From: Escherichia coli | GTDB taxonomy: Bacteria > Pseudomonadota > Gammaproteobacteria > Enterobacterales > Enterobacteriaceae | DNA length: 64,000 bases | NCBI RefSeq assembly: GCF_044324875.1 | Contig: NZ_CP172185.1 | Strand: one strand, 5' to 3' | Translations under genes and position numbers: made by a program | Notes under the pieces: model-generated | What the model was told of the DNA's origin: nothing | What the model saw: only the letters and a program-made list of their open reading frames with translations | The model's database searches: none | Shown here: positions 12,424 to 12,885 of the stretch, piece after piece | Layout of the letters: the number at the start of each line of letters is the position of its first letter | Position numbering within the stretch: the first letter of the stretch is position 1

Positions 12424-12671
12424 GCTTCCACCTCTCCGGTTTTAACGTTGATGGTTGTCACCTGTTCCGCTCCGGCAATCTCCCGTTCTGTCAGCGTGGC
12501 AAAATTTGCCGCTACCGTTGTCATGAATGCGCTTATCAGTTCGGGATGTGCTTTCGCGTATCCTTCTCCCGCGTGGCGGTCTATCGTTCTGATTGCCACC
12601 TTTAAGGCGTGCTCTGTCATGTCTAACGCTTTATATTTTGGCGCTGTCTTATCTCTGGTTTTTCTGTTCAT
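12420..12671 (-). CDS. hypothetical protein
   Basis: ORF 12420-12701; start probably internal ATG (MNRKTRDK) because upstream part lies in iterons. Confidence 0.4.
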   Translation of the reverse strand: MNRKTRDKTAPKYKALDMTEHALKVAIRTIDRHAGEGYAKAHPELISAFMTTVAANFATLTEREIAGAEQVTTINVKTGEVEA

Positions 12672-12885
12672 TCCCCACCACTCCCCACTTTTGCTCCCCA
12701 CTTTTTAAATTCCCCACTTGCTCCCCACCTCGTTTTTTGAGTGAATCTAATGCTTTGTTTTTCATTGCGTTTTTTGCTCCCCACTTTTTTGGATGTATAC
12801 AGGTGGGAAAGTGGGGAATTATGTTTCAATTTTGTTAAATTCCCCACTCTCCCCACTTTTACTACCCACTTTTTACAGTGGGTAA
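12665..12885. repeat. Iteron array, candidate island replication origin (about 9 direct and 2-3 inverted copies of TCCCCACTTTT)
   Basis: Tandem short repeats with T-tracts immediately downstream of the replication ATPase gene; approximate coordinates. Confidence 0.6.

What the first reader, a model, noticed from the sequence alone, without database searches (positions are those of the whole stretch)
12665..12885. Iteron array immediately downstream of the replication ATPase gene: candidate island origin
About nine direct copies and two to three inverted copies of TCCCCACTTTT-like units, interspersed with T-tracts, occupy ~220 bp directly after the 468-aa RecA-like replication protein gene. 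The upstream part overlaps the start of the next small ORF. Helicase/primase followed by iterons is the standard replicon layout of PICI-type satellites and implies autonomous replication after excision.
Basis: partly seen in the sequence, partly recalled or inferred. Interest (0 to 1): 0.45.

Follow-up and report, generated by a model that had tools for sequence, protein, structure and literature searches.

The report
Replication origin of a capsid-forming phage satellite
The repeat cluster is real and is very probably the replication origin of a 15.6-kb capsid-forming phage satellite (cf-PICI) in E. coli: an expected feature of such elements, though comparison suggests one amino acid of the replication protein sets which repeat sequence it reads.

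Summary
Window 12671-12885 holds nine direct and three inverted copies of an AAAGTGGGGA-type unit, far more than chance gives (Poisson P about 1e-15 to 1e-22). All genes here lie on the minus strand. The array starts at the stop codon of the 468-aa Rep gene and ends at the ATG of the next ORF.

The element is a 15.6-kb capsid-forming PICI. The array sits in the same slot (DUF4222 – initiator – gap – small ORF – SSB – PerC) as the experimentally tested pri-rep-ori of EcCICFT073. It has the published PICI origin layout: two iteron sets and opposed copies around AT-rich DNA.

Rep is modelled as a shared N-terminal domain, an RSF1010-RepA-like RecA-fold helicase, and a C-terminal winged helix resembling Orc/Cdc6.

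Among 71 haplotypes, all copies switch together between GTGGG and GTGAG. Of 267 variable Rep positions, only residue 444, at the start of the predicted recognition helix, predicts this perfectly (His with G, Asn with A). Seven distant relatives agree, though one only weakly; Gly or Ser pairs with C.

This is a new member of a known kind. Rep binding and origin activity remain untested.

The parts
12873..14279 (-). rep: 468-aa replication initiator-helicase. It is built from an N-terminal domain (aa 1-126), a RecA-fold RepA-like helicase (aa ~146-390) and a C-terminal winged helix (aa ~398-468).
12876..13088 (-). Part of rep that encodes the C-terminal winged-helix domain, the predicted iteron reader.
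12948..12950 (-). Codon CAC for His444, at the N-terminal cap of the predicted recognition helix. It is the candidate determinant of iteron base 4.
   Evidence: It is the only one of 267 variable Rep columns that predicts iteron type perfectly: H with 45 G-type and N with 26 A-type haplotypes. Distant relatives agree.
12840..12885 (-). Rep-proximal iteron set: three direct copies (12862-12873, 12849-12860, 12840-12851) and one inverted copy (12874-12885) that overlaps the end of rep.
   Evidence: The positions are conserved in 57 aligned variants.
12818..12841 (.). AT-rich spacer 1 (88% AT).
   Evidence: composition profile.
12777..12818 (.). Central head-to-head iterons: inverted copies at 12799-12810 and 12807-12818 face a direct copy at 12777-12788, around the conserved palindrome TGTATACA (12794-12801).
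   Evidence: Inverted repeats I1 and I6. A 10-bp stem is possible in ssDNA, -8.4 kcal/mol, z = -3.7. The palindrome is conserved across iteron types, and a TRTATAYA-like motif is seen in relatives about 55-63% identical (L089, L090, L094, L097).
12729..12778 (.). AT-rich spacer 2 (68% AT), a candidate unwinding region.
   Evidence: GC is 0.34, against about 0.55 in the flanks.
12671..12732 (-). Rep-distal iteron set: five direct copies.
12420..12671 (-). Next gene: an 83-aa protein of unknown function (phrog_1231). Its ATG abuts the last iteron.
   Evidence: Annotated start in L001. It is 75-96% identical among the loci compared, whichever initiator type and iterons lie upstream, so it is not the specificity factor.
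14276..14563 (-). DUF4222 gene, which overlaps the rep start by 4 nt.
   Evidence: Pfam DUF4222 E=3e-25. A DUF4222 gene lies upstream of all three initiator classes, and the copy next to the unrelated primase-type initiator is 95-98% identical to those next to RepA-type loci L002-L006, so it is not the specificity factor.
11698..12108 (-). Island-encoded single-stranded-DNA-binding protein, part of the replication module.
   Evidence: Pfam SSB E=3.7e-16.

Best explanation
The array is the vegetative replication origin of a 15.6-kb capsid-forming PICI.

Shown from sequence and comparison:
- Rep has a RecA-fold, RSF1010-RepA-like helicase core and a C-terminal winged-helix domain.
- The repeats start at the rep stop codon.
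- They form two direct-repeat sets, plus head-to-head copies, around AT-rich DNA.
- The repeat core GTGNG changes in concert across all copies, in step with one residue (444) at the start of the winged helix's third helix.

Inferred:
- After a helper phage induces the island, Rep is made and its winged-helix domains bind the iterons. His444 would read the fourth base (G) of GTGGGG.
- Rep oligomers assemble on both sides and melt the AT-rich spacers, possibly nucleated at the TGTATACA palindrome.
- The helicase loads itself onto the single strands without DnaA or a separate loader.
- The island's SSB coats the strands, and host primase and polymerase complete the replisome.

The pairing of residue 444 with the iteron base would define origin-specificity groups among related satellites.
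For: 1. The repeats are real and far above chance.

2. The context is a cf-PICI. The best E. coli relative, 99.3% identical over the 2.1-kb query (window 12300-14400), is annotated integrase … Icd … DUF4222 – RepA-family helicase – two small ORFs – SSB – PerC – capsid, protease, portal, head closure, connector, HNH, TerS and TerL, with no tail or lysis genes. This fits the published cf-PICI criteria.

3. Published PICI and SaPI origins lie immediately 3' of rep. They have two iteron sets around an AT-rich centre and opposed copies, and are read by a C-terminal winged helix of Rep.

4. EcCICFT073, whose rep plus 3' region was shown to drive plasmid replication, has the same gene order. It carries a different initiator (D5-like) and its own iterons (CTGTCTACC/GGTAGA) in the corresponding gap. 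A third class, DUF927/Cch-like, has TAACCCGCA iterons there.

5. In 62 distinct variants the architecture is kept, while all copies, including the inverted one, switch together among GTGGGG, GTGAGG and GTGGGC.

6. Only Rep residue 444 tracks the G/A switch: normalised mutual information is 1.0, and the next best column scores 0.51. Residues on both sides of it, including 459 and 466, which lie between it and the array, are shuffled relative to iteron type.

7. Independent distant relatives fit the same rule. Asn goes with GTGAG (P0121, P0122, P0124). His goes with GTGGG (P0141; P0131 only weakly). Gly or Ser goes with GTGCG (P0119, P0120).

8. Residue 444 caps the predicted recognition helix of a domain whose best structural matches are origin-recognition winged helices.

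9. The neighbouring DUF4222 protein and small ORF do not co-vary with iteron type.
Against: - No binding or replication experiment exists for this Rep type in anything I could find. The two cf-PICI preprints never mention an origin or iterons.
- The C-terminal codons and the iterons are physically adjacent, so part of the co-variation could be linkage.
- Haplotypes are phylogenetically related, so 71 is not the number of independent events.
- A few arrays are mixed: L058, L064 and L068 combine Asn with 5-6 GAG and 3-4 GGG copies; the L048-L059 group has one or two GAG copies among GGG. Discrimination at base 4 may therefore be partial.
- Iteron spacing is irregular (9-16 bp).
- This Rep has no recognisable primase domain, so priming is unexplained.
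- The structure is a prediction.
Confidence: 0.85

Rival explanations
1. Rep does bind the repeats, but they serve mainly as a control region rather than the initiation site. They might titrate or handcuff Rep, or block or tune read-through transcription from rep into the downstream ORF–SSB–PerC–capsid genes. The true start of replication would lie elsewhere.
For: No terminator-like site lies between rep and the next ORF, and the last iteron abuts its ATG. Rep bound there would therefore sit on the transcript path. In iteron plasmids, repeats also serve copy control (established knowledge).
Against: No other cluster of the motif exists in the island. The layout matches tested PICI and SaPI origins. 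The same slot in EcCICFT073 was required for plasmid replication. A control role and an origin role are not mutually exclusive.
Confidence: 0.07
2. The repeats are operator sites of a transcription factor other than Rep, forming a regulated promoter for the downstream operon.
For: The region is an intergenic repeat cluster with inverted copies just upstream of a gene.
Against: No sigma-70-like promoter was found on either strand. The repeat sequence tracks the Rep winged helix and swaps wholesale when the initiator class changes, while the flanking DUF4222 and small-ORF proteins stay nearly the same.
Confidence: 0.04
3. The repeats are the packaging (cos/pac) recognition site for the island's own small terminase.
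For: cf-PICIs package their own DNA with their own TerS, TerL and HNH proteins, so a specific site must exist somewhere in the island.
Against: The same iterons occur with three different head or packaging modules: HK97-type capsid, protease and portal (L001); a ClpP-protease/capsid fusion (L003); and a different TerS and capsid arrangement (L006). They co-vary with rep and lie about 7 kb from the terminase genes.
Confidence: 0.02
4. The repeats are non-functional slippage-generated DNA.
For: Copy number does vary through 13-bp unit expansions (L021, L054).
Against: The architecture is conserved in 62 variants and in relatives only 50-63% identical. Changes are concerted in all copies, including the inverted ones.
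Confidence: 0.02

Closest known systems
EcCICFT073 pri-rep-ori (E. coli PICI; Fillol-Salom et al. 2018, PMC6092414)
   Same: The surrounding gene order is the same: DUF4222 – initiator – about 200-290 bp non-coding iteron gap – small ORF (80% identical over the aligned 70 aa) – SSB – PerC. The first 126-131 residues of the two initiators are 46% identical. Both have two iteron sets around AT-rich DNA immediately 3' of rep.
   Different: The rest of the initiator is unrelated. EcCICFT073 has D5_N, DUF5906 and Pox_D5 domains (a D5-type SF3 helicase by established classification), while the window has AAA_25, RecA-fold RepA-like. The iterons are CTGTCTACC/GGTAGA rather than AAAGTGGGGA. The EcCICFT073 origin was tested; this one was not.
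SaPI Rep/ori (SaPI1, SaPIbov1, SaPI5; Qiao et al. 2022, PMC9371898, and work cited there)
   Same: A self-loading initiator-helicase with a C-terminal winged helix reads short repeats. Six to twelve iterons lie immediately downstream of rep, with an AT-rich centre and opposed iterons on each side. The window has twelve copies, two AT-rich spacers and head-to-head copies.
   Different: SaPI Reps are AAA+ helicases with 3'-5' polarity, placed in that paper among the superfamily III / MCM-type clades. This motor is a RecA-fold relative of RSF1010 RepA and DnaB; 5'-3' polarity is expected from that family but was not tested. The host is Gram-negative. The unit carries an A-tract, and the core is GTGNG.
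RSF1010 (IncQ) RepA helicase with RepC and oriV iterons
   Different: In RSF1010, iteron binding is done by a separate protein (RepC) and priming by RepB' at ssi sites (established knowledge). Here a winged helix is fused to the helicase, and no RepC or RepB homologue is annotated in the island.
Satellite phage P4 alpha protein with ori/crr repeats
   Same: P4 is a satellite of temperate coliphages in which one polypeptide combines a helicase with C-terminal origin binding to short repeats (established knowledge; discussed).
   Different: P4 alpha is a primase plus an SF3 helicase. Its repeats lie in two separated sites, ori and crr, not directly 3' of the gene. No sequence similarity to P4 alpha was seen here.

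Membership tests
PICI/SaPI-type replication origin | Lies immediately 3' of the replication-initiator gene | tested here: met
   The first direct copy (12862-12873) begins directly after the stop codon at 12873-12875, and an inverted copy overlaps the last codons. The definition is given.
PICI/SaPI-type replication origin | [quoted passage not shown] | tested here: met
   Three proximal and five distal direct copies, with spacers of 88% and 68% AT between them and a GC dip to 0.34.
PICI/SaPI-type replication origin | Iterons pointing in opposite directions around the AT-rich region | tested here: met
   The inverted copies at 12799-12818 face the direct copy at 12777-12788.
PICI/SaPI-type replication origin | Initiator carries a helicase and a C-terminal winged helix that recognises the iterons | tested here: inconclusive
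   The domains are predicted with high confidence, and residue 444 of the recognition helix co-varies with iteron base 4. Binding itself was not measured.
PICI/SaPI-type replication origin | The rep-ori segment drives autonomous replication | not testable with these tools
   This needs a plasmid-rescue or marker-frequency experiment. It has been shown only for the positional counterpart in EcCICFT073.
Capsid-forming PICI (cf-PICI) | [quoted passage not shown] | tested here: met
   A relative 99.3% identical over the 2.1-kb query (window 12300-14400) carries annotation listing exactly these genes. Matching ORFs are present in the window. The junctions in tqsA give about 15.6 kb. The criteria are quoted.
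SaPI Rep protein family (AAA+ self-loading helicase, superfamily III / MCM-type clades) | AAA+ motor domain | tested here: not met
   The motor is AAA_25, a RecA fold. The top matches are RSF1010 RepA, RadA, Twinkle and DnaB. It works like a SaPI Rep but is not a member of that protein family.
RSF1010 RepA-like hexameric helicases (Pfam AAA_25) | RecA-fold core with a Walker A lysine and conserved acidic and arginine residues | tested here: met
Classical iteron plasmids (Rep_3/RepA/pi/TrfA type) | Two-winged-helix Rep_3-type initiator, 17-22-bp iterons, DnaA boxes in the origin | tested here: not met
   There is no Rep_3-type Pfam match. The units are about 10-13 bp. No DnaA box with at most one mismatch lies in 12660-12890.

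The most novel reading that the evidence does not exclude
This Rep defines a class of self-loading RecA-fold (SF4, RepA/DnaB-like) initiator-helicases with a fused origin-recognition-type winged helix. All members would read GTGNG iterons placed just after their own gene. A single residue at the N-cap of the recognition helix would set the variable base: His for G, Asn for A, Gly or Ser for C. That residue would act as a one-residue switch creating origin-specificity (incompatibility) groups among co-resident PICIs and cf-PICIs. The helicase motor, the winged helix and the iterons would move as one cassette behind a shared N-terminal domain that is also found on the unrelated D5-type Pri-Rep of EcCICFT073.
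Probability: 0.55. Interest if true: 0.5.

Novelty: new member of a known kind. Interest (0 to 1): 0.35.

Why it matters
Locating the origin completes the functional map of a cf-PICI, a satellite family described only in 2022-2023. The papers I could read give no origin for it.

The co-variation yields a sharp, inexpensive experiment: swap His444 to Asn and change G to A in the iterons. That would show how satellites sharing a cell keep their replication machineries from cross-talking, and how origin specificity evolves by single steps.

It also shows the PICI origin logic (helicase, winged helix, iterons 3' of the gene) implemented on a helicase motor from a different superfamily than in the staphylococcal models.

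For annotation, 'helicase RepA family protein' (phrog_2850, 'unknown function') could be renamed as a replication initiator, and the 200-bp gap annotated as rep_origin in the many E. coli genomes that carry this module (113 genomes match at least 80% of the rep-plus-array query).

Tried and rejected
- Promoter and terminator scan of 12300-13100: nothing found on either strand. A simple promoter or terminator reading was therefore dropped.
- Rfam search of 12000-13400 at permissive E-values: only two chance-level hits far below gathering score. No known RNA.
- DnaA boxes (TTATNCACA, up to one mismatch): none in the array, and the window count is at chance level.
- Further Rep sites elsewhere in the island, which would suggest an autoregulatory operator upstream of rep: none found.
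- Literature searches for the iteron sequence together with 'iteron': no relevant paper. The two supplementary files of Fillol-Salom 2018 that are held as text contain no iteron sequences. Figure 2a of that paper, which lists iterons, is not held, so I could not check whether this iteron type was already drawn there.
- A search for att direct repeats of 15 bp or more around the island found none. The junctions were instead located by the split tqsA reading frame.
- DUF4222 and the downstream small ORF were considered as the iteron-binding factor. Both were rejected because they stay nearly unchanged when the iterons change completely.
- The packaging-site idea was rejected because the iterons travel with rep across different packaging modules.

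Full report
**1. The observation**

Reading window 12380-13200 on both strands shows that all genes here run on the minus strand. The 468-aa ORF is 12873-14279(-). The repeats lie directly downstream of it in its own direction, and the unit read in that direction is AAAGTGGGGA.

Exact CCCCAC occurs nine times within 12673-12856 and only 21 times in the rest of the 64-kb window. Poisson probabilities for this clustering are 2.5e-15 to 5.7e-22. Eight of the ten window matches to AAAGTGGGGA with at most one mismatch fall inside the array.

In the rep direction the anatomy is:
- An inverted copy overlapping the last codons and the stop codon.
- Three direct copies.
- A 24-bp spacer of 88% AT.
- Two overlapping inverted copies.
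- The palindrome TGTATACA.
- One direct copy.
- A 50-bp spacer of 68% AT.
- Five direct copies.
- The ATG (12671) of the next ORF.

**2. What the element is**

Pfam gives AAA_25 for the 468-aa protein, DUF4222 for the gene overlapping its start, SSB two genes downstream, and a tyrosine integrase at 17408-18637.

The closest E. coli genome is 99.3% identical over the 2.1-kb query (window 12300-14400). Its annotation reads integrase, HTH regulator, Icd-like, small ORFs, DUF4222, 'helicase RepA family protein', two small ORFs, SSB and PerC. These are followed by major capsid, prohead protease, portal, head closure, connector, HNH, TerS and TerL, with no tail or lysis genes. That is the published definition of a capsid-forming PICI.

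In this window the island is about 15.6 kb and is inserted inside the tqsA gene.

**3. Comparison with what is known about PICI origins**

Fillol-Salom et al. 2018 state that the region immediately 3' of the initiator gene is the PICI origin. It has two iteron sets flanking an AT-rich region. They showed that the EcCICFT073 rep-ori segment maintains a temperature-sensitive plasmid, whereas rep or ori mutants do not.

Qiao et al. 2022 summarise the SaPI case. Six to twelve penta- or hexanucleotide iterons lie just downstream of rep, with an AT-rich centre and opposed iterons. They are read by a winged helix in the C-terminal domain of a self-loading helicase.

The cf-PICI papers I could read do not mention an origin or iterons.

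I fetched EcCICFT073 itself. Its order is DUF4222 – 584-aa Pri-Rep – 288-bp gap – small ORF – SSB – PerC. The small ORF is 80% identical over the aligned 70 aa to window 12420-12671. The gap carries its own repeats, CTGTCTACC/GGTAGA. The window's array is therefore the positional counterpart of an experimentally validated origin.

A third initiator class (DUF927 with a Cch-type HTH) occupies the same slot in another island and has TAACCCGCA/TGCGGGTTA repeats.

The DUF4222 protein beside the primase-type initiator (L087) is 95-98% identical to those beside the RepA-type loci L002-L006, although the iterons differ completely. The window's own DUF4222 is about 57-63% identical to those seven copies, and the DUF927-associated one about 30% to all the others. 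The small ORF stays 75-96% identical across all classes. So initiator and repeats swap as one cassette, and neither neighbour is the specificity factor.

**4. Concerted variation of the repeats**

I collected five E. coli loci and 80 IMG/VR loci encoding relatives of this Rep. The 260 bp after the stop codon fall into 62 distinct sequences, all with the same architecture.

The core differs as a block. It is GTGGGG in the window's group, GTGAGG/GTGAGA in O157:H7-type islands, and GTGGGC/A/T in a third group. The inverted copy changes as well. Linkage alone cannot explain a change shared by about ten separate copies. It is the classical signature of sites read by one protein.

Natural variants also show 13-bp unit expansions (L021, L054) and one deletion between the outer iteron sets (L056).

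**5. Which protein reads them**

I aligned 71 distinct Rep-plus-array haplotypes. Of 267 variable Rep columns, only residue 444 separates G-type from A-type arrays perfectly (His in 45, Asn in 26). The next best column has a normalised mutual information of 0.51.

- His and Asn each occur on both upstream backgrounds (Q414/A421 and G414/Q421).
- They also occur with shared downstream residues at 459 and 466, which lie between codon 444 and the array. The association therefore survives shuffling on both sides.
- The two N-terminal domain types (about 45% identical) do not track iteron type.
- A second correlation links the EMKHF versus DTKHL versions of the same helix with GTGGGG versus GTGGGC.

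Seven more distant relatives, 41-63% identical and some fused to Zn-ribbon/Toprim primases, were fetched independently. All have GTGNG repeats in the non-coding stretch after the stop codon. In most the array starts at the stop; in P0124 it starts about 175 bp downstream. They follow the same rule:
- Asn goes with GTGAG (P0121, P0122, P0124).
- His goes with GTGGG (P0141; P0131 only weakly).
- Gly or Ser goes with GTGCG (P0119 from Yokenella, P0120 from Salmonella).

**6. Structure**

AlphaFold2 with a 63-sequence alignment gives mean pLDDT 91.9.
- Residues 1-125 form an alpha/beta domain.
- Residues 407-467 form three helices and a beta-hairpin.

Residue 444 is the residue just before helix 3 (445-454). 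That is the position where winged-helix proteins usually start their base contacts (established knowledge). His pairing with G and Asn pairing with A also fit the usual amino-acid/base preferences (established knowledge). Both points are inference, not measurement.

**7. Mechanism proposed**

Shown: the anatomy, the domain predictions, the positional equivalence to a tested origin, and the co-variation.

Inferred:
- Rep binds the iterons through its winged helix.
- It assembles on both flanks.
- It melts the AT-rich DNA and loads itself.
- The island's SSB and the host priming and polymerase machinery do the rest.

No DnaA box is present, consistent with host-initiator independence. No sigma-70-like promoter, intrinsic terminator or Rfam family is found in the region. 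The head-to-head iterons can form a 10-bp stem in single-stranded DNA (-8.4 kcal/mol, z = -3.7). This is simply the opposed-iteron feature and need not have a separate role.

**8. Rivals**

- A role only in control (Rep titration, or a roadblock to read-through) cannot be excluded, and it is compatible with an origin role.
- A non-Rep operator is unlikely given the co-variation and the absence of a promoter.
- A packaging site is unlikely because the same iterons accompany three different head or packaging modules.
- Junk repeats are excluded by the conservation.

**9. Family membership**

The array meets every sequence-level criterion of a PICI/SaPI-type origin. Binding and autonomous replication remain untested.

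The Rep protein works like a SaPI Rep but is not a member of that protein family. Its motor is RecA-fold (AAA_25) rather than the AAA+ type described for SaPI Reps. It is also not like the D5-type initiator of EcCICFT073, although the first 126-131 residues of those two proteins are 46% identical. It is not a classical iteron-plasmid system either: there is no Rep_3-type initiator, the units are short, and there are no DnaA boxes.

**10. Novelty and score**

An origin just after rep is what a specialist would expect in any PICI, so the finding is ordinary in kind: a new member of a known kind. It is widespread. 1,626 of 5,426 complete E. coli genomes match some part of the query, but many match only the small downstream ORF. 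113 genomes match at least 80% of the rep-plus-array query.

Three things go beyond expectation and could be tested directly:
- The apparent one-residue rule linking Rep position 444 to iteron base 4.
- The use of a RepA/DnaB-type motor in the PICI initiator architecture.
- The mosaic build of the initiators.

Interest is 0.35. The most novel reading still allowed by the evidence is given separately.

Noticed in passing
window 3106-3240 and 18806-19719: The island is inserted inside the AI-2 transporter gene tqsA (ydgG). The 5' part (ATG at 3106) breaks after '...TTATTGCTGTTAT', and the reading frame resumes at 'AATGCTGTTATTCTTAACCC' near 18811. The shared core TGCTGTTAT is the probable att core. 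The closest relative (L001) and EcCICFT073 sit at a different site, between phoQ and roxA. tqsA appears to be split in this strain.
   Followed up: partly
window 3314-3337 and 18662-18684: Tandem pairs of an ACTACACC-containing 11-mer lie just inside both island ends: TTAACTACACC twice at the left end and GTGACTACACC twice next to int. They are likely integrase arm-type binding sites.
   Followed up: no
window 13902-14279 (Rep aa 1-126); L093:8242-8634: The N-terminal domain of this RepA-type initiator is 46% identical (E = 3e-27) to the N-terminus of the otherwise unrelated D5-type Pri-Rep of EcCICFT073. Within the RepA-type proteins it comes in two versions, about 45% identical, that recombine independently of the helicase and winged helix. 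It has no Pfam match and its function is unknown; a shared partner such as DUF4222, SSB or host primase is possible.
   Followed up: partly
window 12794-12801; L089, L090, L094, L097 downstream of rep: A TGTATACA / TRTATAYA element directly after the inverted iteron is conserved across all iteron types, and a similar motif is seen in relatives about 55-63% identical. It does not change when the iterons change. Its role is unknown; it could be a melting nucleus or a binding site for a host factor.
   Followed up: partly
L021, L054, L056 (IMG/VR loci), region after rep: Natural copy-number variants of the array exist. L021 has four, and L054 six, tandem 13-bp units next to the stop codon. L056 has a deletion joining the first and last iteron sets, which removes the AT-rich core and has probably inactivated the origin.
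   Followed up: no
L058, L064, L068; L048-L059 group: Some arrays are mixed. Asn444 Reps occur with 5-6 GTGAG and 3-4 GTGGG copies. His444 Reps occur with one or two GTGAG copies among GTGGG ones. These look like recombinants within the array, or evidence that discrimination at base 4 is only partial.
   Followed up: no
window 14276-14279 and loci L087, L088, L089, L093, L094: A DUF4222 gene precedes every initiator class (RepA-like, D5-like, DUF927/Cch-like). Where coordinates were available, it overlaps the initiator's start codon by 4 nt, which suggests translational coupling and a conserved but unknown role in the replication module.
   Followed up: partly
window 15707-16792 (-) and 15247-15831 (-): The mechanical 361-aa ORF has no Pfam match. 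Only its last ~70 residues match anything: an Icd-like cell-division inhibitor (NCBIfam, residues 313-356) and repressor-type PHROGs. This region differs from the closest relative, which has HicB here. It may be an accessory or regulatory cassette, or an over-long ORF call.
   Followed up: no
L090, L091, L096: More distant relatives of the helicase-plus-winged-helix module are fused to Zn-ribbon and Toprim primase domains, making true primase-helicase initiators, and still have GTGNG iterons in the non-coding stretch after the gene. In the window's Rep that position is taken by the 126-aa domain of unknown function.
   Followed up: partly
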